Origin: Escherichia phage phiWec179
DNA: 64,000 bases
Direction: 5' to 3' (one strand)
Sequence record: LC739533.1
Positions 6,338 through 41,604 of the stretch are shown here, one piece after another; the first letter of the stretch is position 1, and each line of letters starts with the position of its first letter. Position numbers and translations under genes: made by a program. The notes beneath the pieces are model-generated. The model saw only the letters and a list, made by a program, of their open reading frames with translations. It did not search any database and had not been told where the DNA came from.

Positions 6338-7711
6338 TTAGTTTGCAGTACGGTTGGTCAGGACGTGAACCTGAACCTTAACGTAATGGAAGAATCCTGC
6401 GTAAACGTATTCAATCTTCATGCCGTCAACCAGACGCTGATTAATCTGCGAATCAGTCATGTCAGCACGAGAAGGAAGGTAAACGATAGGCTTCAGGTCA
6501 ACACGCAGTCCAGTTTCTTCTGAAACAACCACTTCGTTAGAAATAGAACCGTTCAGAATACCAACTTGGATCGGGTTAGCCAGAACCGCTTGTTTAATCA
6601 GAGCCAGACCATTGGAAGTAGCACGAACACCACCACCCAACATTGACTGCTGTTTGAACAGAGTGAACAGAGATTCTTCGGTACGAGCTTTGAACCACAG
6701 AGCGTGAACTACGTAGTCAGCAAAGAAACCGTTAACCATCAGACCATCGCGGTAGAACAGAGTTGCGTGTTCTTTACGGTAGATGTTACCATTCTGTTGA
6801 ACAATGTTATTTTCCGCAGTCTGACCAAGCTTCTCGATTTCAACTCCAACCAGAGTTTTACCGTGTAGAGTGGTAGTACCAGGCTGTGCAGAGCAGATAG
6901 AACCAACTACGGCAGCTTCTGGGAATACAGAGTCCGCGTCGCTCATCCACAAGGCGAAACAGGTGTTGACGTAACCGAGGTCATTCAAACGCTCAAGAAC
7001 GTTGTCTTCGGCTTTAGTAGTGATACCAACGTCTGAACTGGAGAAGAAGTATACTTTATCATTCTCTTCTACCCAAGCAGCTACATCAAGAATATCTTCA
7101 ACAGCGTGGGAGTCAGACAGAACCCAGAACCAGCTACTATCGATATCGTGCAGAGCGGCGATATCTTCGGTAATGCCGTTAGCGTAGACGGTTTCTTTAG
7201 CGAAGCCGTTTGCATCCAGAGAAGCGTATTTGCCTACAACTGGAGAAACAGTGATCACAGCACCATCGTTAGCAACGGTAAACAGACCACCATAAACTAC
7301 GTCTGCATTGATCATTTCTGTCAGACCAACAACGATTTCTTGTGCTGTTGCAGTGTCGTCAGCAATGAATTTGAAATCTTTCTTGTTCTTGCCTTCTTTG
7401 ATAGTGACAACATATGTTGCACTGTCTTCAACTGCTGGGGTCAGGGTAAAGTTTGTTACTTCACGCTTACCAACAATCACTTGACTTGGTGCGAATAATC
7501 CGTTAAACAGTTTAACTGCCATGATATAGGCTGGATCATTAACACCGTAACCCGCTTCCAGAAGTGCGTCAGAAGAGGTGTAATATTCAATCGCGTTACC
7601 AGTGACAGTCTGACCAGTAAGGATCAGGGGAATGTCAAACTGGGTTTCACGGATTGATGTAGCTCCGTACAGTAAAGTTACGGTTGCTACCTTTTCACGA
7701 AAAGTTGCCAT
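6338..7711 (-). CDS. Tail sheath protein (tentative)
   Basis: 457 aa ORF preceding tube gene; size and order as in P2/Mu-like sheath-tube-chaperone-TMP modules. Confidence 0.5.
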   Translation of the reverse strand: MATFREKVATVTLLYGATSIRETQFDIPLILTGQTVTGNAIEYYTSSDALLEAGYGVNDPAYIMAVKLFNGLFAPSQVIVGKREVTNFTLTPAVEDSATYVVTIKEGKNKKDFKFIADDTATAQEIVVGLTEMINADVVYGGLFTVANDGAVITVSPVVGKYASLDANGFAKETVYANGITEDIAALHDIDSSWFWVLSDSHAVEDILDVAAWVEENDKVYFFSSSDVGITTKAEDNVLERLNDLGYVNTCFALWMSDADSVFPEAAVVGSICSAQPGTTTLHGKTLVGVEIEKLGQTAENNIVQQNGNIYRKEHATLFYRDGLMVNGFFADYVVHALWFKARTEESLFTLFKQQSMLGGGVRATSNGLALIKQAVLANPIQVGILNGSISNEVVVSEETGLRVDLKPIVYLPSRADMTDSQINQRLVDGMKIEYVYAGFFHYVKVQVHVLTNRTAN

Positions 7712-13435: not shown

Positions 13436-15001
13436 TTAATTCGATAAGTTTGCTGCTGATGGATCAAGAGCCGAAACGCTGGTGGATGTACCTGTACCTG
13501 CGGTCGCCATACCGTCTCCAGAACGTGAAGTTTTATCTGGCATGAATGTCTCCATATATTCTACGAATTTATCCTTGTCAGAAACAATGTCGTCTGGTAT
13601 ACGATAATCAAAGCCTAACTTCTCTAAGAACTCGTTGATAATTTCCGCTGTAAGTGGAATAGCTCCTGCTGCAACAATCTGTTGGATCGCTTTAGCGTTT
13701 ACTTCAATATCAGGATCGCCCATTTCACCACTAACAAACTTCGGCATATCTTCATCGGAAAGGAAGATATTGTTTAAGCGAAGTGCTTGTGGGATCAATT
13801 GAGAGTTAATAGCTTCAACAACAATATCTACATCACGTTCAATGAAGTGTGAGAGCAGGGTCTGTTTATTATCGGACAATGCAAAGCTGCCAGCGTCCCC
13901 GTCACCCATTATCAATACACCCGCACCAAAACGGTTGTAAATATCCAGTTTACGTTGTTTGATCAGTTCTTGCGTATCAAACTGTTTACCAGCCCCTTCT
14001 ACACCTTGGAACACCAGGTCATACTGACGCATAACAGTGCCTTCATAAACGTCTGAAGGTAATACCATATATGCTTGCTCACCAGAGTGTAGGTTAGCAA
14101 TGTTTGCCTGGAGCACGCGTAAGGACTGTGCTTCATCTCCGGCAGGGTCAAGAGATGCGCGGTTAAGAATATCGCTCGGTACTTTCAGAACAGGCATACC
14201 GCCCAAATCTTTAGAAACACCGATAACTTCGAATTCTTGAATTAAAGATTTTTCACGCCAGCTACGATATACAGCCAACAGAGGTGACACACCCAGAGGA
14301 TTGTTTTCTGTGATATTGCTACCAACAAAAATAACCTTGTTCATGGGGATTTGACGTACACCCAGTTGTAGCTTACTATTACCTGGAGCCAACATAGTAT
14401 TGGTGATGTTCTGGTTTACCGAAATAACGGAGCGACCATCATCAGAATAGGTGAAAGGGTTTGACATATCCAAAGTATCTTGCGGTCGGAAAGCAAGCTT
14501 AGTGAGACGATAATAGCCATAGTATGGACTCTTCGGATCTTCGTCAAGTTCAAACACCTTTTCAGCAAATGCAAAACCGAACTGCTTATATGTAAGAAGA
14601 GATCTCACATACTGGCGTAATGGTGCTTGCATGTTGCGTAACATGTATTCAATAAACTTTGCAGCTTTTCTTGACTTGGCAGAGTTTACGTTGTATTTTA
14701 TTTTAAAGTCGAAAAATGCTCTGTCTACGAAAATGTATGTTGCATCAAGAGCGGTAGCAACATCTGGGTCTTCACCCATTTCCTTATAAGTACGGATGTT
14801 TTCAGGAAAGCGTGTTTCATACGGTTGCATGAAGTTAGTGAATGCTTTGATTGAGTTCAACCCAATCGTCCCGATTTCAGGAGAGAGAAGTAAACTCTTT
14901 TCTTTCTCTGCCTGTTTTGACGGAGAGAGAGCAGCTTTGTTCACTGCACTTTGTTTCCAGTAATCCGACTTCTTAGTGTACTGTCTTTTTTCTGTTGACA
15001 C
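13436..15001 (-). CDS. Portal protein (tentative)
   Basis: 521 aa ORF directly downstream of terminase large subunit; GTG start at 14999-15001 with GGAGGAAG RBS. Confidence 0.5.
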   Translation of the reverse strand: MSTEKRQYTKKSDYWKQSAVNKAALSPSKQAEKEKSLLLSPEIGTIGLNSIKAFTNFMQPYETRFPENIRTYKEMGEDPDVATALDATYIFVDRAFFDFKIKYNVNSAKSRKAAKFIEYMLRNMQAPLRQYVRSLLTYKQFGFAFAEKVFELDEDPKSPYYGYYRLTKLAFRPQDTLDMSNPFTYSDDGRSVISVNQNITNTMLAPGNSKLQLGVRQIPMNKVIFVGSNITENNPLGVSPLLAVYRSWREKSLIQEFEVIGVSKDLGGMPVLKVPSDILNRASLDPAGDEAQSLRVLQANIANLHSGEQAYMVLPSDVYEGTVMRQYDLVFQGVEGAGKQFDTQELIKQRKLDIYNRFGAGVLIMGDGDAGSFALSDNKQTLLSHFIERDVDIVVEAINSQLIPQALRLNNIFLSDEDMPKFVSGEMGDPDIEVNAKAIQQIVAAGAIPLTAEIINEFLEKLGFDYRIPDDIVSDKDKFVEYMETFMPDKTSRSGDGMATAGTGTSTSVSALDPSAANLSN

Positions 15002-15104: not shown

Positions 15105-17183
15105 TTATCTTCGACGAGGAGTACTTACAGTAGTGAAATGCCTGGAGTTCATGTTACTGTACCCAGTAGGTGCATTTGTTGTTGTAGGTATCGCTACAGC
15201 CTTGTGTGCCGTCTCTTTCGCCAGAGTGTTGAAGCAAGATGCTGCGGCATCTGGAAGGTCATCTTTAAGCATTGCTGTAGATCGTTCACCGTTAAAAGAT
15301 TCCAATTCTTTATAAAAGTGATTCAAAGTTTCAATGTTAGGAAATGAATCTTCTACGATATAAACAAAACCATTCTGACAGGCACTACTGAACGGCATGA
15401 AACGTTGAAGTTTCTTTTTGTTGCCTGGCATTGCGTCGGGTTTAACAACAAAACCTTCAACAATAAGTTTCTTAGCTGATTCCGTATATTCAATGAGTCC
15501 AGCACCAGACGGGTCTTTTGGAAGAACGATCTGAACATCTGGTCCATCAATCTTAGCCTGTTGGAGGATCAGGTTATCCCTGTCACCAGGTAAGCGTCGG
15601 AATCTTCCGAAAACTTTACTCTTCTCGTCTATAGCGTCGTAATCATAATCCCCGAAGATATAAATGTTCCCGTTTAGGTCTTTACCCATCTTAACCGATG
15701 CTGTATAGTCGGGATAACGATAACGTTCACTTGGAACGGATACAGCTTTATCCCATGCACGCATATACTTCATGTTGTTAGGAACATCTTTGTATTCTAT
15801 CTTGTGAAGCCATTCACGTTGGAAGAATGATTCCTCTTGAATACGGGCAAACCAACAACCATCCAGAAGCTGTGCTCGCTTGATCGCTGTCTGCGATTTA
15901 AGAGAAGCCAGGTATTTCGGGTTAAGGCGAATCAGTTCAGGGTTATCAAAGATCGTACCGCCGATAAACACAAACGTTTGAGGTTCGATCGTAACAATCT
16001 CACCAGTGTTTGGGTTCTCCATGAAACAGTTTTCAGGATACTTCTCTTTAAGTTCCTCTGCTGTGTCGGCAAATACAGGCTCATCATTTACAATAATGAA
16101 GTAGGTTTGTTTACCACACATATCTTCACGAGGATAACCGCCTTCGTCAAGATAAGGTAACACCCAGTTCAGTACCCAGCTATCCGCATCGGGGTTACAG
16201 GTACAGAGCATGAAAGATGTTTCTGACTCGGAACGCATACGACCGAGAAGATAAAGCATCTCGTACTGGGTGAAATGGGTGAGTTCGTCAAAACCAACCA
16301 TACTGTACTGTGTACCCTGATGGTTAGTCTCGGCTGTAACGTTATCGTTCTCCAGATGGTCAAACTTCAAAGTACCACCGTTAGTGGCCTCAAAGATAAT
16401 GTCCATCGTACTTTCTTTTACGTGTGGTTGTAAAGGAAGATACAAACGTTTAGCTTCTGTAAACAAACCCCCTGGCTTACGGTGTGCAGTAGTGTTCTTA
16501 CGGAATAAGATACCACCGAACAAAGGATCTTTATAGGCAAACTTAAGGGCTTTTAGCAGAAGCAGACGAGACTTGCCGCTATTGCCAGTAACGAAGCAGT
16601 GATTGCCCCGTCTAAGGACAATATAGCTACTTGGAGTTTCAAAGCAATATTTCTTATCATCAGATGTAATAACCTCGTGTATTTTTAAATAAGTGTTTTG
16701 TTTGCCTGGGATGTTAAATGGAACGCGCTTACCGAACGGATCTTCAATGTATCCTTTCAGTGGTGCTCCTGCTTGTTGCAGAGCAATAAGATCTCCCACA
16801 GCAATCTCAAAATGTTTTTTGGATTTCTTTTTCTTGTAAAAGACGAAACGATGCTCCATACTCAACTCTTGGAACACTCCTGCACCATTAGTGATTCGGT
16901 ACAGGTTGTCATCTTTCATATCGTATTCTACGAAGTAAGGTGTGACCAACTCTAAGCGTTTTCTCTTAGGATTATACTGGTAGATATCTTCTCCACTGTA
17001 CTGACTTATTTGTTTCCAACCATCACGGGTAAGATACTCTGTTTCAGCAGATACACAACCTGCGGCACCACCGTAAATCATAACTTCCGGCATTAGATCC
17101 ATTGCCAGCGTCTGTTTACCTGGTTGAGCCTTTACTTCGATATCAGCGCCAGCTAAACTGCCAGCCGCTTTTTTCTTAGCCAC
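15105..17183 (-). CDS. terL: Terminase large subunit, intein-containing precursor
   Basis: N-terminal YGGAAG ... SGKS split Walker A, Walker B-like VGFDELTHF, nuclease-type C-terminal region; GTG start with AAGGAGG RBS. Confidence 0.8.
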   Translation of the reverse strand: MAKKKAAGSLAGADIEVKAQPGKQTLAMDLMPEVMIYGGAAGCVSAETEYLTRDGWKQISQYSGEDIYQYNPKRKRLELVTPYFVEYDMKDDNLYRITNGAGVFQELSMEHRFVFYKKKKSKKHFEIAVGDLIALQQAGAPLKGYIEDPFGKRVPFNIPGKQNTYLKIHEVITSDDKKYCFETPSSYIVLRRGNHCFVTGNSGKSRLLLLKALKFAYKDPLFGGILFRKNTTAHRKPGGLFTEAKRLYLPLQPHVKESTMDIIFEATNGGTLKFDHLENDNVTAETNHQGTQYSMVGFDELTHFTQYEMLYLLGRMRSESETSFMLCTCNPDADSWVLNWVLPYLDEGGYPREDMCGKQTYFIIVNDEPVFADTAEELKEKYPENCFMENPNTGEIVTIEPQTFVFIGGTIFDNPELIRLNPKYLASLKSQTAIKRAQLLDGCWFARIQEESFFQREWLHKIEYKDVPNNMKYMRAWDKAVSVPSERYRYPDYTASVKMGKDLNGNIYIFGDYDYDAIDEKSKVFGRFRRLPGDRDNLILQQAKIDGPDVQIVLPKDPSGAGLIEYTESAKKLIVEGFVVKPDAMPGNKKKLQRFMPFSSACQNGFVYIVEDSFPNIETLNHFYKELESFNGERSTAMLKDDLPDAAASCFNTLAKETAHKAVAIPTTTNAPTGYSNMNSRHFTTVSTPRRR
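16581..17057 (-). mobile_element. Mini-intein inserted in terminase P-loop (159 aa)
   Basis: Insert begins with Cys (CVSAETEY...), ends ...CFVTGN followed by Ser; removing it restores YGGAAGSGKS. No homing endonuclease domain evident. Confidence 0.6.
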
Positions 17184-17192
17184 TTCTCCTCC

Positions 17193-17519
17193 TTACTTAC
17201 TGATAATCCCTTTCTCTTGCAGAGCCTTAATGTAGTTTTGCAGACCGATTACTTTATTACGATCTTGACTCCAGAGAACATTGTTTGTGGTTCCGTTGTC
17301 AACAACTTCTGAACGAGAAACACCTTTCGCCACTTGTTGATCCGTATACGGCACTGGCTCACTTACACCCTCCATAAGAGAGGATTCTGGAGCTTTGACT
17401 TCTTGTACCGCAACAGCTTTACATTCATCAATTAGAATCGGGGAGGCTTTTGTTGAGGATGCGCAACCCGTCATCATTAGGGCCGAAGCAAGACATAGAC
17501 CCAGTAGTAGTTTTTGCAT
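17193..17519 (-). CDS. Outer-membrane lipoprotein, o-spanin-like
   Basis: Signal peptide MQKLLLGLCLASALMMTG-C lipobox; start overlaps 3' end of i-spanin-like ORF in another frame. Confidence 0.45.
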   Translation of the reverse strand: MQKLLLGLCLASALMMTGCASSTKASPILIDECKAVAVQEVKAPESSLMEGVSEPVPYTDQQVAKGVSRSEVVDNGTTNNVLWSQDRNKVIGLQNYIKALQEKGIISK

Positions 17520-17835
17520 AGTTTGTTTTCTCCTCGTTTATCTTCTTTTCCTTGTTTGCTAAATCTTTTCTCAATTGAGCATTCTTGGCAGAGAGTGAAG
17601 CGATTTGGTTATTAAGAGCGAGACGTTCATCATCTGCTTTCTTTTGAAGAACATCAAAATCTTGTTTTGCTTTTGCTTGTTGTTGCTGATAGATAGTTAC
17701 TTGGTGCTGTTCTCCAGCAGTGTAACCATTATCATATAAAGCCTTTCCGCCGAAGTATAAACCAGCTAAAAGGGCTACTAACAGAAGAATAACGTAAAAC
17801 CATTTACTCTTCAGAATCATTGGTATCAGGTTCAT
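17428..17835 (-). CDS. i-spanin-like protein (N-terminal TM plus coiled coil)
   Basis: N-terminal hydrophobic helix then periplasmic coiled coil (QQQQAKAKQDFDVLQKKADDERLALNNQIASLSAKNAQLRKDL); overlapped by lipoprotein gene. Confidence 0.45.
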   Translation of the reverse strand: MNLIPMILKSKWFYVILLLVALLAGLYFGGKALYDNGYTAGEQHQVTIYQQQQAKAKQDFDVLQKKADDERLALNNQIASLSAKNAQLRKDLANKEKKINEEKTNYAKTTTGSMSCFGPNDDGLRILNKSLPDSN

Positions 17836-18672: not shown

Positions 18673-18943
18673 TTAAGGTCTGTTGATTACCTTAACAGTT
18701 TGTCCTTTGTCGTTCATCAGATAGGCTGATTCAGTTTTGTGAACAAAGATAACACGTTCACCTGCGATAACAGAGGCTACCACGCCATCTGGTCGATCAT
18801 AACCTTCCCAATGATACTGAATAATTACGTCATCCTCTAAGCAGTAAAAGAATTCTTCTTCATTTACATTGAAAGGGACGGTATTGTAAATCTTTACTTC
18901 ATCTTCTTTAGAAAATTTACGGATTGTTTTTAACGTATACATG
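18673..18943 (-). CDS. Hypothetical protein
   Basis: About 90 aa from ATG at 18943; the longer listed ORF to 19170 runs through tRNA genes and is rejected. Confidence 0.4.
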
Positions 18944-19049
18944 ATGTGTCCTATTAAGTATTTAGTGTTTAGTGGGTTGTGCGTTTTAGGAGTCGCACCC
19001 CTCCCTCTTAGAAGGAACCAGGCAAGGTCTTCAAAGATACCGCTGGCGC

Positions 19050-19128
19050 GATATTTGGAGGCGGGAATCGGATTCGAACCGATGATCTCCAGCATATGAA
19101 ACTGGCGAGGACGACCAAACTCCTCTAT
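19050..19128 (-). tRNA. tRNA with anticodon CAU (Met or Ile2)
   Basis: Hand-folded: acceptor AGCGGGA/TCCCGCC (1:72 mismatch), anticodon stem CCAGT/GCTGG, loop TTCATAT, T-arm ATCGG-TTCGAAT-CCGAT, encoded CCA. Confidence 0.6.
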
Positions 19129-19134
19129 CCCGCT

Positions 19135-19205
19135 ATTAGGTGTCCCGTGCTGGATTCGAACCAGCATCACAATAAGTTGTGGATCTCTTATCCTGTAAGT
19201 CTAAC
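19135..19205 (-). tRNA. tRNA-like element, non-canonical (no standard anticodon arm found)
   Basis: Perfect T-arm GCTGG-TTCGAAT-CCAGC and near-complementary acceptor strands, but the middle forms a CACAA/TTGTG tetraloop hairpin instead; no encoded CCA. Confidence 0.3.
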
Positions 19206-19206
19206 G

Positions 19207-19280
19207 GGAAACTGGTTGTTTCGACAAGAATCGAACTTGTGTCTCACGATTATCAGTCGTGGGTTCTACCATTGAACTAC
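19207..19280 (-). tRNA. tRNA-Ile (GAU)
   Basis: Acceptor TGTTTCG/CGAAACA, D-arm GTTC-AATGGTA-GAAC, anticodon arm CACGA-CTGATAA-TCGTG, T-arm ACAAG-TTCGATT-CTTGT, encoded ACCA. Confidence 0.75.
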
Positions 19281-19286
19281 GAAACA

Positions 19287-27770: not shown

Positions 27771-27994
27771 TGGCAACAACATTCTATTTTGAAGGTAGTG
27801 AGAAAAAGACTTCCATTACCTTTCAAAGGGGTACACCAGCAGAAGATTTCTTATGGATGATAATCGATCATCTGAAAAGCGAAGGTATTCACCATATAGA
27901 CGAGTATTTCGCAGAGTCTACGGACTGGCAAAGCGTTGTTATGGAAGATGTTATTTTCGAACTACACCATATTATTAAGGAGGAGGGAATTTGA
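27770..27994 (+). CDS. Hypothetical protein
   Basis: Start at ATG 27770 overlapping upstream stop. Confidence 0.4.
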   Translation: MATTFYFEGSEKKTSITFQRGTPAEDFLWMIIDHLKSEGIHHIDEYFAESTDWQSVVMEDVIFELHHIIKEEGI

Positions 27995-29106
27995 AACAGA
28001 CTAATCAGACACTTTACGGTAAAGACTCAAATGGTAAACTGAAGCAATGGACTGTTTTCACAGACGGGGCAACAGTTACCGTAGCTCACGGTAAAGTTGG
28101 TGGGAAGATTACACAAAAATCATACGAGGCAGAAGCTAAAAACACTGGACGTGCAAATGCAACCACTCCAGAAGAACAAGCTGAAGCTGAAGCTTTTGCC
28201 AAATGGACTAAGCAACTGAAGAATGGTTATTATAAAACCACGGAAGAAGCAGAGAACCATGTTCCATCTACACCAATGAAATGCCAGGACTATAAAGATT
28301 TTGCGCATAAGGTGGTCTTCCCTGGGTATGCACAATACAAACTGAATGGCTTACGTTCAATGATCAACATGAAGGGCGAATGTTTGTCTAAAGCTGGAGA
28401 AGTTTACAAACTCCCTCCGCACTGGCAAGGTATTCCAAACTTCATCAGCGAAGTTGTTGGTCATCCTCTGGATGGGGAAGTGTTCGCTGGTCTTGGTGTT
28501 CTTAGTTTGCAACAGATCAACAGCGCATGGAAAAAGCACAATGAGAATACACCGCTCCTCAACTATTATGTTTACGATGTTCCTGTGGCAGATATGCCAT
28601 TTGAGAAGCGTGTTGAAGTATTAGCGGCTCTTAAAGCTGTAGCCGAAGATAACGGTTTGGACGAACTGATCTGTGTCGTACATACAGAGTATATTGAAAA
28701 TCAAGAACAGTTGGATGCATTTTATGCTAAAGCTTTACTTGAAAAAGCTGAAGGTATCGTGTATCGTAATGCTCATGGTGTCTATGAGTTTGATAAACGT
28801 TCCTATGACGTGATCAAACGAAAACCGCGCCAGACTTTGGAAGTTAAAGTTATTTCTATGCGTTCTGATAAAAATAACGATGGGGTGTTGACAGGTGAGA
28901 TGGAGAATGGTAAACTTGTTGAGTTCTTGATGCGAAAAGATGCTCACGAAACTATCAACTACCGTAAAGCAGAGAATGCCGAAACTTTGATTGGTCAGTT
29001 TGTTGAGATCGAGTATGAAGAATTTTCTGATGAAGGTATCCCAACTAAACCAGTCGGTGTACGTCTTCGTAAAATGATCCCAGGGACTTGGGAGCCAGCA
29101 GAGTAA
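27991..29106 (+). CDS. ATP-dependent DNA ligase-like nucleotidyltransferase
   Basis: Motif I-like KLNGLR, motif III-like LDGEVFA, motif IV EGIVYR, motif V VIKRK in correct order; apparent TTG start after AGGAGG RBS. Confidence 0.55.
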   Translation: MKQTNQTLYGKDSNGKLKQWTVFTDGATVTVAHGKVGGKITQKSYEAEAKNTGRANATTPEEQAEAEAFAKWTKQLKNGYYKTTEEAENHVPSTPMKCQDYKDFAHKVVFPGYAQYKLNGLRSMINMKGECLSKAGEVYKLPPHWQGIPNFISEVVGHPLDGEVFAGLGVLSLQQINSAWKKHNENTPLLNYYVYDVPVADMPFEKRVEVLAALKAVAEDNGLDELICVVHTEYIENQEQLDAFYAKALLEKAEGIVYRNAHGVYEFDKRSYDVIKRKPRQTLEVKVISMRSDKNNDGVLTGEMENGKLVEFLMRKDAHETINYRKAENAETLIGQFVEIEYEEFSDEGIPTKPVGVRLRKMIPGTWEPAE

Positions 29107-37911: not shown

Positions 37912-40152
37912 GTGATTCGATACGTTACTAAATCAAATGGTAAGACAGAAGAGTTCAATCCTGAAAAACTGCGTAAATGGTCTGAATTTGCAGCAGGGAA
38001 ACTGAACTGGTCGGAAATTGAATTAGAAGCTGTGAAACGTTGTTACGATGGTGTGTCTACTCGTGATTTACATAAAGCTATGATCGCTGCGTGTATTGAT
38101 AAGAAGACTCAAGCGTACAGTGATATGGCAGGTCGATTGCTTCTCGGTATGATTTACAAACAGGCTCACGGGGGATACCACAGTATCCCTTCCCTGTACA
38201 CTTTCTACCAAGATATGGTGAAGCGTGGACATTGGGCCAAGATGGACTATACCGAAGAAGAAATCAAAGAGATTGGTAAGATTGTCAAACATAACAAGAA
38301 TCTAACCTACGGTTATTCTGTTCTTCGTCAGATGGCGGATAAATACTTGGTTCGTGATGCTGTGAATGATGTTGTTCACGAGTCACCGCAATTCCTGTTT
38401 ATTGGTGTGGCAATGCGTGTTATGGAGATCCAGCCTAAAGATCGTCGTATCAACGATATCAAAAAGCTGTACACATACGTAAGTGATCTTCAGATTAACT
38501 TACCATCTCCTTATCTGACAACGTTACGTACTCCGATCAAAGGTAGCGCGTCTTGTTGTTTATTCCGTGCAGACGATACAGCAGAGTCTTTGGCTATTGC
38601 AAACTATCTGGCACACGAATATACGTTGAATAATGCAGGGATTGGTGTTAACCTCCAAACTCGTGCAACTGGACAGGGTGTTAAGAACAACCGTATCGTT
38701 CATGGTGGTCTTCTCCCTTACCTCAAGTGGATGGAAGATAGCGTAGGAGCTTCTAAACAAGCGAGTCGTGGAGGTAGTGCAACGGTTACGTTCACAATCT
38801 TGGAGCCAGATTTTGAAGATCTGATTCGACTGAAGAACCCAACCACTCCGATCGATAAGCGTGTTGATAAGCTGGATTACTCTGTTGTTGTAAACCGCTC
38901 CTTCCTTCGCCGTGCGGCTAAAGGTGAAGAGTGGATGCTTGTGAGCTGTGACGAAGCACCGGAACTTTACGAAGCATTGTACAAAAGTGAAGAAGAGTTC
39001 GATGCGGTCTACGATAAAGTTAGTCGCCGTCGCATCAAAAAGAAAATTGTTAAGGCTCGTGACCTGTTGACTGAAATCATTGTTCAACGTGCAGAAACTG
39101 GACGTATTTATATGTTCTTCGCTGACAACGTAAACAATCACAGTCCTTTCCTGGATACTGTGTATCAGTCAAACTTATGTCAGGAGATCTTTTTACCTAC
39201 TAAAGCGTTCCATAAAATGACGGATCTCTTTACTGGTGAAAACACAGAAGATCAAGAATTGGCTTTATGCTTCTTGTCCTCTATTGTTGCTGGGCGCGTT
39301 ACGCCGGAGCAATATGAAGATGTTGCGTATTATACTGTATTGACGATTGATAACGTTATTGAGACGATGGAATATCCGTTCAAACATAACGAGATCACAG
39401 CTAAGGCTCGCCGCTCTATCGGCGTAGGTATTACAAACCTTGCACATTACTTGGCAAGCAACTTTGTAACCTATTCTGATCCTTATGCGAAGAAGCTGAT
39501 GCATGAATTAGCAGAACGTCATTACTTCTGGTTGGCACAAGCCTCTCTGCGCTTGGCGAAAGAGAAAGGTAATGCCGAGTGGATGGATAAAACTAAGTGG
39601 CCTCAAGGTTGGCTCCCTATTGACACCTACGCTAAAGCAGTAGATACTATTGGGGACTTTGAACTGAAGCTGGATTGGGAAGGCTTACGTGCTGGTATCA
39701 TTGAACAAGGTGGTATCCGTAACAGTGTGCTTGCAGCAGTGGCCCCGAACGAATCAAGTAGCTTGGTGAGTAATACGACCAACTCACTCTACCCTGTACG
39801 TGACACGATCATGTACAAACAGAGTCAGAAAGGTAACGTACTGTTTATCGTACCAGATTACGAAAAACTGAAAATGTTCTATCAGTCGGCGTGGGATACC
39901 CCGTCTAAAGATATTGCCGAGATGTATGGACTCTTCACTAAGTTTACGGATCAGGGTATCTCCTGTGATGCTTGGTTAGATTATTCCAAAATGGAAGGTG
40001 GACGTTTATCAGTGAAAGCCGAGATGCAATTTATCTTAACATTTGCAAAGCTTGGTGGTAAATCTCTTTACTACCTGAACAGCCGAACCAAATCAGCGGA
40101 ATCTATGGCCCAAGAAGATTCTGATGGTGGTTGTGAAGCTTGTAAAATGTAG
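37912..40152 (+). CDS. nrdA: Ribonucleoside-diphosphate reductase alpha subunit (class I)
   Basis: 746 aa; N-terminal ATP-cone (IRYVTKSNGKTEEFNPEKL), paired with adjacent R2; GTG start after GGGAGGAG RBS. Confidence 0.85.
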   Translation: MIRYVTKSNGKTEEFNPEKLRKWSEFAAGKLNWSEIELEAVKRCYDGVSTRDLHKAMIAACIDKKTQAYSDMAGRLLLGMIYKQAHGGYHSIPSLYTFYQDMVKRGHWAKMDYTEEEIKEIGKIVKHNKNLTYGYSVLRQMADKYLVRDAVNDVVHESPQFLFIGVAMRVMEIQPKDRRINDIKKLYTYVSDLQINLPSPYLTTLRTPIKGSASCCLFRADDTAESLAIANYLAHEYTLNNAGIGVNLQTRATGQGVKNNRIVHGGLLPYLKWMEDSVGASKQASRGGSATVTFTILEPDFEDLIRLKNPTTPIDKRVDKLDYSVVVNRSFLRRAAKGEEWMLVSCDEAPELYEALYKSEEEFDAVYDKVSRRRIKKKIVKARDLLTEIIVQRAETGRIYMFFADNVNNHSPFLDTVYQSNLCQEIFLPTKAFHKMTDLFTGENTEDQELALCFLSSIVAGRVTPEQYEDVAYYTVLTIDNVIETMEYPFKHNEITAKARRSIGVGITNLAHYLASNFVTYSDPYAKKLMHELAERHYFWLAQASLRLAKEKGNAEWMDKTKWPQGWLPIDTYAKAVDTIGDFELKLDWEGLRAGIIEQGGIRNSVLAAVAPNESSSLVSNTTNSLYPVRDTIMYKQSQKGNVLFIVPDYEKLKMFYQSAWDTPSKDIAEMYGLFTKFTDQGISCDAWLDYSKMEGGRLSVKAEMQFILTFAKLGGKSLYYLNSRTKSAESMAQEDSDGGCEACKM

Positions 40153-40157
40153 CAATA

Positions 40158-40181
40158 CAGGGGCTTCGGCCCCTTTTTTAT
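40158..40181 (+). terminator. Rho-independent terminator after nrdA
   Basis: AGGGGC-TTCG-GCCCCT followed by TTTTTT. Confidence 0.65.
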
Positions 40182-40193
40182 TGAGGAGCGATT

Positions 40194-40532
40194 ATGAGCA
40201 CACTTATAGTTTTACCTGGAGTAACCCCAATCTACCGACCTGGGTTTAAGCCTCTGTTGCTTTGCCCTGAAGATTTCACCCCTACTTGGTGTCACCATTA
40301 TCTTGGTGGACGTGAAATAGCTAACATGCAGATTTGGGAATCTTTTTATCCAGAAGCCACGGCTTACGCAATAACAAGAGCAAGAAGTGAAGAAACAGTG
40401 ACTGTTATACTTGGTAGAAGCGTATGGGAAGCATTAGAAGGTTTCTACCGGAGTAATGGTTTTGAGGAACAAGATATTTTAAACTTAAAAGGTTTTTGTG
40501 AAATAGTGGAGGATTTAAATGGCAGCAATTAA
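40194..40532 (+). CDS. Hypothetical protein between nrdA and nrdB
   Basis: 112 aa; RBS GGAG. Confidence 0.45.
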   Translation: MSTLIVLPGVTPIYRPGFKPLLLCPEDFTPTWCHHYLGGREIANMQIWESFYPEATAYAITRARSEETVTVILGRSVWEALEGFYRSNGFEEQDILNLKGFCEIVEDLNGSN

Positions 40533-41604
40533 TTTACATAATGAGACTTACAAAACAGGTAAATATCCGGTATTCATGGGTGAGCAATTGGGGATCTTTG
40601 ACTCAATTAATGTGACGTATCCTGAAATGCACCGTCTGTATAAACTTCAGAAAGCCCAAGATTGGGATGAGAATGAAGTGGATCTTAGTCAGACCCGTAA
40701 AGACTTTGTAGCGTGTTCAAAAAACAACTACGATGTTATGATCAAGAACTTGTCGTTCCAGTGGGAGAATGATTCTCTGGCAAAATCCATCATCACTTTG
40801 TTCTCTCCGTTTTTGAGCAACAATGAAGCATGTGCTATGATGATGAAGCAGAGTGAGATGGAAGTGCTTCACGCTCTAACTTACTCGGAGATTGTTCGCC
40901 AGTGTACTCCAAACCCTGTAGAAGTTATTGATCAGATTATGGAGAACGACAAGATCTTCAACCGTATGGGTATCATTGCAGAGATCATGGGAGAGTTGGA
41001 AGAAGCAGGTCACAAATATGCACTTGGTCTGATTGAAGCTGATGATAAACTACGTTTGCTGGTCATGAAAGGTCTGGTAGCCCTGATTGGTCTGGAAGGT
41101 ATCCAGTTTATCTCTTCTTTCTCGGCAACGTTCGCCTTGGCAGAACAGCAACTGTTTGTAGGTGCTTGTAAGCTGATTCAGAAAATCATGTTGGATGAAA
41201 TCCTGCATGTTAAAATGGACTATGCTGTCATTGATGCTCTGATGCAAGATCCTGTGTGGAAGAAGATCTACGAAGATAACATCGAAGAACTTACAACTAT
41301 TCTGGATACAGTTATCGCTCAAGAAGAGCAGTGGTGTGATTATCTGTTTAGCGAAGGACGTTTTATCGTTGGGCTGAATGCTGAACTGTCCCGTCAATGG
41401 GTGTACTTCAATGCGGCTCCAATTTATCGTCGTTTGAAGATGAAGCACAGCTTTAAATCTCCTAAACAGAACCCACTACCTTGGATGGACATTTGGTTAA
41501 ACCCAGATCAGATTCAAGCAGCGGCGCAAGAGATCCAAGTTACAGCTTACAAACTGAACTCGGCTAACAAAGATGTTTCTGATGATATGGAGTTTGACTT
41601 CTAA
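40519..41604 (+). CDS. nrdB: Ribonucleoside-diphosphate reductase beta subunit
   Basis: 361 aa, helical di-iron R2-like (EVLHALTYSEI), paired with nrdA. Confidence 0.8.
   Translation: MAAINLHNETYKTGKYPVFMGEQLGIFDSINVTYPEMHRLYKLQKAQDWDENEVDLSQTRKDFVACSKNNYDVMIKNLSFQWENDSLAKSIITLFSPFLSNNEACAMMMKQSEMEVLHALTYSEIVRQCTPNPVEVIDQIMENDKIFNRMGIIAEIMGELEEAGHKYALGLIEADDKLRLLVMKGLVALIGLEGIQFISSFSATFALAEQQLFVGACKLIQKIMLDEILHVKMDYAVIDALMQDPVWKKIYEDNIEELTTILDTVIAQEEQWCDYLFSEGRFIVGLNAELSRQWVYFNAAPIYRRLKMKHSFKSPKQNPLPWMDIWLNPDQIQAAAQEIQVTAYKLNSANKDVSDDMEFDF

What the first reader, a model, noticed from the sequence alone, without database searches (positions are those of the whole stretch)
16581..17057. Mini-intein splitting the Walker A P-loop of the large terminase
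The terminase reads ...MIYGGAAG | CVSAETEY...CFVTGN | SGKSRLLL.... The 159-aa insert starts with Cys and ends with Asn followed by Ser, the residues needed for splicing. Removing it recreates the canonical terminase P-loop YGGAAGSGKS. The insert is too small to hold a homing endonuclease domain, so it would be a mini-intein. Packaging would depend on splicing.
Basis: partly seen in the sequence, partly recalled or inferred. Interest (0 to 1): 0.65.

Follow-up and report, generated by a model that had tools for sequence, protein, structure and literature searches.

The report
Mini-intein splitting a phage terminase P-loop
The DNA-packaging motor gene of this E. coli phage is interrupted, in the middle of its ATP-binding loop, by a small self-splicing protein element (a mini-intein) that all its close relatives share; the type is well known in phages, but this one has gone unannotated and has an unusual set of catalytic residues.

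Summary
On the minus strand, window 15105-17183 encodes a 692-aa large terminase. Codons 43-201 (16581-17057) form a 159-aa in-frame insert, CVSAETEY...CFVTGN, between MIYGGAAG and SGKSRLLL.

The interpretation as a mini-intein is supported by five results.
- Sixty-one terminase homologues lack the insert and read YGGAAGSGKSRLLL without interruption.
- Relatives of the insert sit in unrelated proteins, in 111 of 159 cases at the same G|xGK[S/T] point of a P-loop. They start with Cys and end in [T/S]GN followed by S/C/T.
- A profile of the family hits solved inteins; the best is 6zgq at E 8e-10.
- An AlphaFold model (pLDDT 96) matches only HINT folds in the PDB.
- Larger relatives at the same terminase site carry a LAGLIDADG-like endonuclease that is missing here.

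The intein is present in every close relative examined (phAPEC8- and phi92-like phages) and is under purifying selection (omega about 0.06). It is missing from GenBank annotation and from Pfam and NCBIfam hits.

Its closest characterised relative is the AceL NrdHF class 3 intein. Both have Cys at block F:4, Thr-Gly-Asn at the C-terminus and no penultimate His, but this intein keeps Cys1. Which cysteine makes the first attack is therefore unresolved.

Splicing itself was not shown. It is a new member of a known kind, of moderate interest.

The parts
15105..17183 (-). Large terminase (TerL) precursor gene: 692 aa, 78.8 kDa, GTG start, stop codon included
   Evidence: ORF. Pfam Terminase_6N E 3.9e-17; PHROG 979 terminase large subunit E 1e-213. 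100% identical to Escherichia phages phiWec181 and phiWec186. Mass.
17058..17183 (-). N-extein, 42 aa, ending ...MIYGGAAG (first half of the Walker A P-loop)
   Evidence: Translation. Gly at -1 is invariant in 17 clade representatives and present in 130 of 159 family inteins.
16581..17057 (-). Mini-intein, 159 aa, 18.6 kDa, HINT fold, no homing endonuclease
   Evidence: Translation. 649 relatives at E<=1e-3. Junction analysis. Profile against the PDB: 6zgq E 8e-10. AlphaFold pLDDT 96.3, pTM 0.88. Foldseek: the 50 PDB matches listed are all HINT domains.
17019..17057 (-). Block A (N1): CVSAETEYLTRDG, with Cys1
   Evidence: Cys1 is present in 157 of 159 family inteins and 17 of 17 clade members. 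T6 and W14 are invariant in alignment A1.
16839..16880 (-). Block B (N3): GVFQELSMEHRFVF, with Ser66 (B:7), His69 (B:10), Arg70 (B:11) and Phe71 (B:12)
   Evidence: His69 is present in 157 of 157 and Ser/Thr66 in 150 of 157 family sequences. The corresponding residues S65, H68, R69 and M70 were characterised in AceL NrdHF. Coordinates.
16686..16835 (-). Central 50-aa lysine-rich subdomain (KKKKSKKHFEIAVGDL...NTYL) at the position where larger relatives carry the endonuclease
   Evidence: Alignment with 323-328-aa relatives. The model places a helix and strands here at pLDDT 95-97. It is the best-conserved part of the intein within the clade, with mean identity 0.80.
16608..16655 (-). Block F (C2): KKYCFETPSSYIVLRR, with Cys138 at F:4 and Pro142
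   Evidence: Cys138 is invariant in A1. It is present in 160 of 161 aligned sequences; by eye the one exception looks shifted by one residue, which I did not realign. It is present in 17 of 17 clade members. It corresponds to the essential C124 and to P128 of AceL NrdHF.
16578..16601 (-). Block G (C1) plus the +1 residue: HCFVTGN|S, with Thr157 (G:5), Gly158 (G:6), Asn159 (G:7) and Ser+1
   Evidence: G158 and N159 are invariant in 161 family sequences. All 159 family inteins end in TGN or SGN, and the +1 residue is S 73, C 49, T 37. AceL NrdHF ends T144-G145-N146|S.
15105..16580 (-). C-extein, 491 aa, starting SGKSRLLLLK (second half of the P-loop), then the rest of the ATPase and the nuclease domain
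   Evidence: Terminase_6N covers residues 202-460. TIGR01630 gives a weak hit on residues 572-654. Coordinates.

Best explanation
The 159-aa insert is a functional mini-intein in the large terminase of a phAPEC8/phi92-like coliphage (subfamily Stephanstirmvirinae). It sits inside the Walker A P-loop, between Gly42 and the Ser that becomes residue 43 of the mature protein (GGAAG|SGKS). The gene is translated as a 78.8-kDa precursor whose ATP-binding loop is interrupted. The HINT domain then removes itself as an 18.6-kDa product. It first converts the Gly(-1)-Cys1 peptide bond into a thioester and passes the N-extein to Ser+1. Asn159 then cyclises to cut the C-terminal junction, and an O-to-N shift leaves a normal peptide bond. 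The result is a 60.3-kDa terminase with an intact YGGAAGSGKS loop. The intein descends from a mobile family that carries LAGLIDADG-like endonucleases and targets the same point of P-loops in many NTPases. It has lost its endonuclease, is present in every close relative examined here, and is inherited vertically. Selection keeps it splicing-competent because imprecise loss would destroy an essential gene. Shown here: the anatomy, the homology, the fold, the empty-site homologues and the purifying selection. Inferred: that splicing occurs, that packaging depends on it, and the order of the chemical steps. Two cysteines, Cys1 and the class-3-type Cys138 at F:4, are both conserved, so which one makes the first attack is open.
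For: The insert and its flanks read as described.

Empty-site and occupied-site homologues. Of the 119 best terminase homologues examined, 61 read YGGAAGSGKSRLLL without interruption. Another 32 carry an insert matching the C...[S/T]GN|S pattern; most sit at G|SGKS, and three pattern matches (P0232, P0266, P0271) have unreliable boundaries. The well-defined inserts measure about 146, 158-159, 246 and 323-328 aa. A named example is Aeromonas phage 2L372D.

Relatives of the insert. There are 649 at E<=1e-3. Among the best 150 proteins, 159 inteins were found: 157 start with Cys, all end in TGN or SGN, and all are followed by S, C or T. Of these, 111 sit at G|xGK[S/T] of helicases, DnaX, PhoH, RecD-like proteins and terminases.

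Conserved residues. C1, T6, W14, H69, C138, G158 and N159 are invariant.

Homology and fold. The family profile hits solved inteins: 6zgq at E 8e-10, then the TFIIB, DnaX and PolII inteins. The AlphaFold model has pLDDT 96.3, and the 50 PDB matches listed by Foldseek are all HINT domains; the best is 6zgq with TM 0.73-0.75.

Endonuclease. Full-size relatives at the same site have LAGLIDADG-like motifs, with Pfam LAGLIDADG_3 at E about 0.01.

Selection. Intein omega is 0.05-0.07 against 0.04-0.15 for the extein, and intein identity tracks extein identity. All key residues are kept in 17 clade representatives, with only Ser/Thr swaps at positions 66 and 157 and one Pro142-to-Glu change.

Solved relative. 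AceL NrdHF has the same SxxHR / C-x3-P / TGN|S pattern and splices with a half-time of about 4 min.
Against: There is no direct evidence of splicing: no protein data, and terminase is not a virion component. No Pfam or NCBIfam intein model matches the insert, and a single-sequence search against the PDB found nothing. The penultimate His and the block F His used by most inteins for Asn cyclisation are absent. All close relatives carry the insert, so on clade data alone it could be read as a fixed domain. dS is near saturation in most comparisons, so omega is approximate.
Confidence: 0.9

Rival explanations
1. It is an intein that splices by the class 3 route or by a hybrid relay. This is a variant of the main explanation, not a denial of it.
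For: Cys138 is invariant across the family. Class 1 inteins usually have Asp at F:4, whereas class 3 inteins have Cys (Tori 2010). Thr157 occupies G:5, as in the class 3 WCT triplet. The closest relative by both sequence and structure is AceL NrdHF, a proven class 3 intein with the same SxxHR, C-x3-P and TGN|S pattern, in which C124A and C124S abolish all activity. Three WCT inteins with Ser1 or Cys1 were already noted.
Against: Cys1 is kept in 157 of 159 family inteins. That is not expected if Cys1 is dispensable; position 1 of class 3 inteins is a non-nucleophile. B:12 is Phe, not Trp. Cys+1 occurs in 49 of 159 family members, which is very rare in class 3. By the working definition of Hoffmann 2020 (no Cys at position 1), it is not class 3.
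Confidence: 0.35
2. It is a degenerate, non-splicing HINT domain that stays permanently in the mature terminase as an insertion domain.
For: It is present in every close relative found and has no endonuclease. It is under purifying selection along its whole length, and the non-catalytic central subdomain is the best-conserved part. The penultimate His is missing.
Against: Every residue needed for splicing is invariant or conservatively replaced, in the clade and across hundreds of relatives in unrelated proteins. An 18.6-kDa domain between the fourth and fifth residues of GxxxxGK[S/T] should prevent phosphate binding; Kelley 2016 argue the same for mycobacteriophage terminases, whose inteins did splice. 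The His-less relative AceL NrdHF splices efficiently.
Confidence: 0.04
3. The intein has been retained as a conditional switch. For example, a Cys1-Cys138 disulfide or another environmental cue could delay splicing, and hence packaging, until conditions are right.
For: The intein has been retained over a long period without an endonuclease, at a conservation level equal to the host protein. In the AceL NrdHF crystal structure the F:4 thiol lies about 3 A from the N-scissile carbonyl, so by homology Cys138 should lie close to Cys1. Regulatory roles have been proposed for P-loop inteins.
Against: No evidence here bears on regulation. Persistence is explained more simply: only a precise deletion is viable, and no intein-free allele was seen among close relatives to recombine with.
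Confidence: 0.1
4. It is not a protein element at all: a group I intron, an assembly artefact or a chance ORF fusion.
For: Introns and free-standing endonuclease genes do interrupt related terminase genes. Vibrio phage 1.063.O has a NUMOD4 gene just upstream of a terminase ORF that begins MGSGKS. The Aeromonas phage 2L372D terminase is split into two CDSs.
Against: The insert is in frame and free of stop codons in about 130 independent phage genomes. It evolves under protein-level purifying selection and is predicted to fold as a HINT domain with very high confidence.
Confidence: 0.01

Closest known systems
AceL NrdHF intein (PDB 6zgq; Hoffmann et al. 2020, PMC7891396)
   Same: It is the best hit both by sequence profile (E 8e-10) and by structure (TM 0.73-0.75). 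It shares an unusual residue pattern: Ser at B:7, His at B:10, Arg at B:11, a non-Trp hydrophobic residue at B:12, Cys at F:4 followed by Pro four residues later, Thr-Gly-Asn at the C-terminus, Ser+1, and no His at G:6 or F:13. It is of probable phage origin.
   Different: AceL NrdHF starts with Ala, is naturally split with a GIY-YIG gene between the halves, sits in a ribonucleotide reductase subunit, and is experimentally class 3. The window intein starts with Cys, is contiguous, sits in a terminase P-loop, and is untested.
Mycobacteriophage terminase inteins TerL1-a and TerL1-b (Kelley et al. 2016, PMC5050341)
   Same: These are inteins in the Walker A P-loop of a phage large terminase. Five representative terminase and terminase-like inteins, including the P-loop TerL1-b, spliced in a reporter. 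Splicing is argued to be necessary for the active site and for pentamer assembly.
   Different: The terminase family differs (Terminase_1 there; the Terminase_6 intein in that study is in the C-motif). The insertion point differs (GK|T and one residue away, against G|SGKS here). Several have active endonucleases. They come from actinobacteriophages. No close sequence relationship was seen here.
Canonical class 3 (WCT) inteins, e.g. MP-Be DnaB, Msm DnaBi1, Mch DnaB1
   Same: They have Cys at F:4, Thr at G:5 and Ser or Thr at +1. They show a preference for P-loops of helicases and terminases and have a proposed phage origin.
   Different: They lack an N-terminal nucleophile, have Trp at B:12 and keep the penultimate His. 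Structurally they are only distant matches (TM about 0.5, ranks 17-28) and were not hit by the family profile.
Standard class 1 mini-inteins, e.g. Spl DnaX, TFIIB, Npu DnaB, gp41-1
   Same: They share Cys1, the [T/S]xxH block B, the terminal Asn, a +1 nucleophile, the HINT fold and the lack of an endonuclease. They appear as weaker profile and fold hits.
   Different: They have Asp (or another non-Cys residue) at F:4 and usually His-Asn at the C-terminus.

Membership tests
Intein (HINT-domain protein-splicing element) | HINT (hedgehog/intein) fold | tested here: met
   AlphaFold with a 64-sequence alignment gave pLDDT 96.3 and pTM 0.88. The 50 PDB matches listed by Foldseek are all inteins, BIL domains or hedgehog domains; the best has E 8e-7 and TM 0.73-0.75.
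Intein (HINT-domain protein-splicing element) | In-frame insertion in a conserved host protein whose homologues lack it and are contiguous across the site | tested here: met
   61 terminase homologues read YGGAAGSGKSRLLL without interruption. 32 carry inserts matching the same pattern, most at exactly the same point.
Intein (HINT-domain protein-splicing element) | Sequence homology to known inteins | tested here: met
   The family profile hits 6zgq at E 8e-10, followed by the TFIIB, DnaX and PolII inteins. The curated Pfam and NCBIfam intein models do not hit, and neither does a single-sequence search.
Intein (HINT-domain protein-splicing element) | N-terminal nucleophile (Cys, Ser or Thr at position 1) and block B [T/S]xxH | tested here: met
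   Cys1, and Ser66-x-x-His69. Cys1 is present in 157 of 159 family inteins and His69 in 157 of 157.
Intein (HINT-domain protein-splicing element) | C-terminal Asn and a +1 Ser, Thr or Cys | tested here: met
   Asn159 followed by Ser. Asn is invariant, and the +1 residue is S, C or T in all 159 family inteins.
Intein (HINT-domain protein-splicing element) | Penultimate His (G:6), which assists Asn cyclisation (common, not universal) | tested here: not met
   Gly158 is invariant in the family. AceL NrdHF shares this and still splices. There the G145H mutant is inactive and Arg69 (B:11) partly compensates. Arg70 is present here.
Intein (HINT-domain protein-splicing element) | Actual excision with ligation of the exteins | not testable with these tools
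   It needs protein expression or proteomics. The expected masses are 78.8 kDa going to 60.3 + 18.6 kDa.
Mini-intein (no homing endonuclease) | Splicing domain only; no endonuclease domain between blocks B and F | tested here: met
   The insert is 159 aa and has no LAGLIDADG motif. Relatives at the same site are 323-328 aa with LAGLIDADG-like motifs, and one 246-aa form looks intermediate. The antisense 85-aa ORF inside the insert has no Pfam hit.
Class 3 inteins | No Cys, Ser or Thr at position 1 | tested here: not met
   Cys1 is conserved in 157 of 159 family inteins. This is the working definition used.
Class 3 inteins | Cys at block F:4 | tested here: met
   Cys138 is invariant.
Class 3 inteins | Thr at block G:5 | tested here: met
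   Thr157. The family has T in 132 and S in 29 sequences.
Class 3 inteins | Trp at block B:12 | tested here: not met
   Phe71 here, and V, F or M in the family. AceL NrdHF has Met at this position and is nevertheless class 3.
Class 3 inteins | Block F branched thioester intermediate; Cys F:4 essential and residue 1 dispensable | not testable with these tools
   It needs C1A, C138A and C138S mutants and trapping of the intermediate.
Bacterial intein-like (BIL) domains | No +1 nucleophile; mainly cleavage rather than splicing; not inserted in conserved sites of essential proteins | tested here: not met
   Ser+1 is present, and the insertion is in a conserved P-loop. BIL structures are only secondary fold matches.

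The most novel reading that the evidence does not exclude
The terminase intein, and the large family it belongs to, may be a natural bridge between class 1 and class 3 splicing. It keeps the class 1 nucleophile Cys1, yet it has the invariant block F:4 Cys, the G:5 Thr and the His-less TGN terminus of its proven class 3 relative AceL NrdHF. Both thiols would then be used, either as a thioester relay (Cys1 to Cys138 to Ser+1) or as a redox-sensitive Cys1-Cys138 pair that gates maturation of the terminase. Beyer et al. 2020 argued that class 3 could hardly arise from class 1 by stepwise mutation. A lineage with both nucleophiles would supply the missing intermediate.
Probability: 0.3. Interest if true: 0.6.

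Novelty: new member of a known kind. Interest (0 to 1): 0.42.

Why it matters
Inteins in the ATPase P-loop of phage terminases are a known and common kind, so the finding does not change the picture of what inteins do. It matters in three smaller ways.

1. It adds a feature to a much-used group of coliphages (phAPEC8, phi92, ESCO5, and the BASEL phages Bas61 and Bas62, many proposed for therapy). None of the five GenBank records inspected marks an intein. The BASEL table lists 0 inteins for Bas61, which carries it. A 2024 paper states that no inteins are reported in coliphages while describing a phage that has this one. Terminase trees and size comparisons for these phages silently include 159 foreign residues.

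2. The family is large: 649 cluster representatives, mostly at the same point of P-loops in unrelated NTPases. Neither the window insert nor ten family-bearing proteins matched a Pfam intein model, and the NCBIfam scan of the insert also found nothing, so such inteins are probably under-counted.

3. Its residue pattern (Cys1 together with Cys at F:4, and TGN) ties an isolated, experimentally proven class 3 intein to a Cys1-bearing family. This gives a compact, E. coli-native 159-aa test case for how class 1 and class 3 chemistry relate, and possibly a new fast His-less splicing scaffold.

Tried and rejected
- Pfam and NCBIfam scans of the insert gave no family, even at E up to 10. This reflects the models, not the insert.
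- A single-sequence search against the PDB gave only chance hits at E>0.5.
- The word-index homologue search with the 159-aa insert found only 5 close hits. The exhaustive search was needed.
- Single-sequence AlphaFold gave pLDDT 37 and was unusable. It was superseded by the run with an alignment.
- tblastn of the spliced N-terminal region against phage genomes could not show the junction, because alignments started after the P-loop, probably through low-complexity masking. The protein-level analysis was used instead.
- Tori & Perler 2011 (class 3 inteins with Ser1 or Cys1) could not be read. My recollection is that such inteins splice without residue 1. That is from memory, is marked as such, and is not used as evidence.
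- Model coordinates are not exposed, so the Cys1-Cys138 distance could not be measured.
- A group I intron or an artefact was considered and rejected.
- The antisense 85-aa ORF 16698-16955 (+) was considered as a hidden endonuclease and rejected, because it has no Pfam hit and the region encodes well-folded HINT strands.
- A scan of the window with the family profile found no second copy.
Full report
OBSERVATION. The coordinates are right, but the feature is on the minus strand. Window 15105..17183 (-) is a 692-aa ORF with a GTG start. Bases 16581-17057 (-) translate to the 159-aa sequence CVSAETEYLTRDGW...KKYCFETPSSYIVLRRGNHCFVTGN. The flanks are ...MPEVMIYGGAAG and SGKSRLLLLK... Removing the insert gives a 533-aa protein with the Walker A sequence YGGAAGSGKS.

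The ORF is a large terminase. Pfam Terminase_6N scores E 3.9e-17 on residues 202-460, that is, only downstream of the insert. PHROG 979 'terminase large subunit' scores E 1e-213. The window is 100% identical over this gene to Escherichia phages phiWec181 and phiWec186 and about 81% identical to phAPEC8-like phages. The neighbouring genes match the annotated order in relatives: spanins upstream and portal downstream.

IS IT AN INTEIN? Five independent lines say yes.

(1) Empty sites. A search with the spliced 533-aa sequence found 1986 homologues. I examined the 119 best. All 15 full-length proteins with 69% identity or more carry a 158-159-aa insert at this point. Sixty-one more distant proteins (46-63% identity, about 500-530 aa) read YGGAAGSGKSRLLL, or a near-identical string, without interruption. 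In all, 32 carry an insert matching the C...[S/T]GN|S pattern. Most sit exactly at G|SGKS, but three pattern matches (P0232, P0266, P0271) have unreliable boundaries. The well-defined inserts measure about 146, 158-159, 246 and 323-328 aa. A named example with an intact loop is Aeromonas phage 2L372D.

(2) The insert has relatives in unrelated proteins. An exhaustive HMMER search gave 649 cluster representatives at E<=1e-3. Most match in two stretches, the N-terminal ~80 and the C-terminal ~35 residues, separated by about 180 residues. That is the layout of an intein with an endonuclease in the middle. In the best 150 proteins I located 159 such elements.
- 157 start with Cys, and all end in TGN or SGN.
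- The next residue is always S (73), C (49) or T (37).
- The preceding residue is Gly in 130.
- 111 lie at G|xGK[S/T] of a P-loop.
- The hosts sampled include ResIII/DEAD helicases, RecD-like helicases, DnaX-like clamp-loader ATPases, PhoH and terminases. By junction motif and phage annotation they also include RtcB ligases and MetK-like proteins.

(3) Conserved blocks. The family alignment has invariant C1, T6, W14, H69, C138, G158 and N159. The block B-like motif is LS.EH, the block F-like motif is KYCF.VPS, and the block G-like motif is F[I/V]TGN.

(4) Profile homology to solved inteins. A profile of 64 family members hits PDB 6zgq (AceL NrdHF intein) at E 8e-10. The next hits are the TFIIB, Spl DnaX and PolII inteins.

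(5) Fold. With the family alignment, AlphaFold gives pLDDT 96.3 and pTM 0.88. Foldseek against the PDB lists 50 matches, and all are HINT domains. 6zgq is first (E 8e-7, TM 0.73-0.75), followed by Prp8 inteins, BIL domains and hedgehog.

The curated Pfam and NCBIfam intein models miss this family. That probably explains why none of the GenBank records inspected marks it.

WHY 'MINI'. Terminase homologues with 323-328-aa inserts at the same site align with the window intein at both ends. Between the ends they carry about 170-180 extra residues with two LAGLIDADG-like motifs (LRLQVAVMADG and I.DEV.HWDGS), giving a weak Pfam LAGLIDADG_3 hit at E about 0.01. One 246-aa form looks like a decaying endonuclease. 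Vibrio-phage relatives have 146-aa minis. Full-size, decaying, mini and empty alleles at one site are the expected stages of the intein homing cycle.

The window intein keeps only a 50-residue lysine-rich subdomain at that position. The model folds it confidently. It is the best-conserved part of the intein within the clade, with mean identity 0.80. Its role is unknown.

HISTORY IN THIS PHAGE GROUP. tblastn finds the insert in 153 phage records. About 130 are phAPEC8-, phi92- or Klebsiella-phage-like Stephanstirmvirinae at 74-100% identity. Across five genomes, intein identity tracks extein identity (0.72-0.88 against 0.67-0.91). Where dS can be estimated, intein omega is 0.05-0.07 and extein omega is 0.04-0.15; dS is close to saturation, so these values are rough. 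In 17 clade representatives the key positions C1, H69, R70, F71, C138, G158, N159, G-1 and S+1 are invariant. S66 and T157 show only Ser/Thr swaps, and P142 is replaced by Glu in one sequence. GC content is only slightly lower than in the flanks. This fits one old invasion, loss of the endonuclease, and vertical inheritance under selection for precise excision. The family profile finds no second copy in the window.

MECHANISM. Established intein chemistry predicts the following steps.
- Activation of the Gly(-1)-Cys1 bond by Ser66 and His69.
- Formation of a thioester.
- Transfer of the N-extein to Ser+1.
- Cyclisation of Asn159.
- An O-to-N acyl shift that leaves a normal peptide bond.

The unspliced 78.8-kDa precursor has an 18.6-kDa domain between the fourth and fifth residues of GxxxxGK[S/T], so it should not bind ATP. 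The 60.3-kDa product has a normal loop (masses). Kelley et al. 2016 make the same argument for mycobacteriophage terminases. They showed that five representative terminase and terminase-like inteins splice, including one of the two P-loop insertion types. Because these are viable lytic phages with a single terminase gene, splicing is strongly implied. It was not observed here.

AN UNUSUAL ACTIVE SITE. The penultimate residue is Gly, not His. Block F:4 is an invariant Cys, whereas class 1 inteins usually have Asp (Tori 2010). G:5 is Thr. These are hallmarks of class 3 inteins, which use the F:4 Cys as the first nucleophile.

The closest relative by sequence and by structure, AceL NrdHF, is a proven class 3 intein with a very similar pattern. 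It has S65, H68, R69, M70, C124 (essential), P128, T144-G145-N146 and Ser+1, and it has no His at G:6 or F:13. The window intein has S66, H69, R70, F71, C138, P142, T157-G158-N159 and Ser+1. The one major difference is residue 1: Ala in AceL NrdHF and Cys here.

Cys1 is kept in 157 of 159 family members, which argues that it is needed. Cys+1 is also common in the family (49 of 159) but very rare in class 3 inteins. The first nucleophile therefore cannot be settled from sequence. I rate class-1-type initiation by Cys1, with Cys138 in an essential supporting or relay role, as somewhat more likely than pure class 3. By the working definition of class 3 (no Cys at position 1), this intein is not a member.

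WHAT IS KNOWN. Terminase is the most common host of phage inteins, and P-loop insertions are classic. The kind is therefore known. This particular intein appears to be unreported.
- None of the five GenBank records inspected marks it. A few product names hint at 'endonuclease'.
- The BASEL table lists 0 inteins for Bas61 EmilieFrey, which carries it.
- Full-text searches pairing 'intein' with phAPEC8, Phapecoctavirus, phi92 or Stephanstirmvirinae found no mention of it.

The literature library covers open-access papers only, so an earlier mention elsewhere cannot be excluded.

VERDICT. The feature is a real HINT-fold mini-intein, very probably active, inside the terminase Walker A loop. It is a new member of a known kind, with moderate interest. 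The interest comes mainly from the overlooked family and from its mixed class 1 / class 3 residue pattern.

Noticed in passing
window 19056-21113 (-): An array of 10 tRNA genes (Met, Ile, Pro, Gln, Gly, Thr, Tyr, Ser, Arg, Met) lies upstream of the lysis and terminase genes. The ORFs listed at 18673-19170 and 19179-19427 overlap the first tRNA genes of the array, so they are probably not real genes.
   Followed up: partly
window 17193-17519 (-) and 17428-17835 (-): Two overlapping small ORFs lie just upstream of the terminase. One has a lipoprotein signal (…LMMTGC). They correspond in position to the o-spanin and i-spanin genes annotated in ESCO5 and JohannJBalmer.
   Followed up: partly
L007 1-2357 (Vibrio phage 1.063.O, MG592441.1): A terminase homologue is called from 'MGSGKSRLLL', that is, from exactly the intein insertion point. 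It lies directly downstream of a NUMOD4 (homing-endonuclease-type) gene at the start of the record. Several other homologues also begin at the P-loop (P0195, P0200, P0209, P0267, P0175). These may be fractured genes or introns at the same hot spot.
   Followed up: partly
L006 1462-3303 (Aeromonas phage 2L372D): The terminase has an intact P-loop, but it is annotated as two CDSs separated by about 380 bp after '...ANHQG'. This suggests an intron or another insertion at a different site.
   Followed up: no
phage records (H119-H124): The same intein family is found in RtcB-type RNA ligases of Corynebacterium phage Lederberg, Bacillus phages BCP8-2 and JBP901 and Pseudomonas phage PS119XW. It is also in the terminases of Escherichia phages Av-05 and 24-2-1. 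Junction motifs VDIG|CGM and GGGAF|SGKD recur in metagenomic proteins.
   Followed up: partly
records: Genomes labelled Pseudomonas phage PsgM04F (97.6% identical over this gene), Campylobacter phages B15, A150 and C3, and Acinetobacter phage ABPW7 are near-identical to E. coli Phapecoctavirus genomes. The host labels look doubtful.
   Followed up: no
window 16686-16835 (-): The 50-residue lysine-rich central subdomain of the intein (KKKKSKKHFEIAVGDL...) is more conserved within the clade than the splicing blocks around it (0.80 against 0.72 mean identity). This is unexpected for a simple linker.
   Followed up: partly
window 37912-41604 (+), 27991-29106 (+), 13436-15001 (-), 6338-7711 (-): Other large genes in the window are the ribonucleotide reductase large and small subunits (both uninterrupted), an ATP-dependent DNA ligase, a Mu-type portal and a DUF3383 protein. 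Papers report a DNA polymerase intein in a related Justusliebigvirus and 1-2 inteins in BASEL phages Bas60 and Bas62. Nothing comparable was seen among the ORFs scanned in this window.
   Followed up: partly
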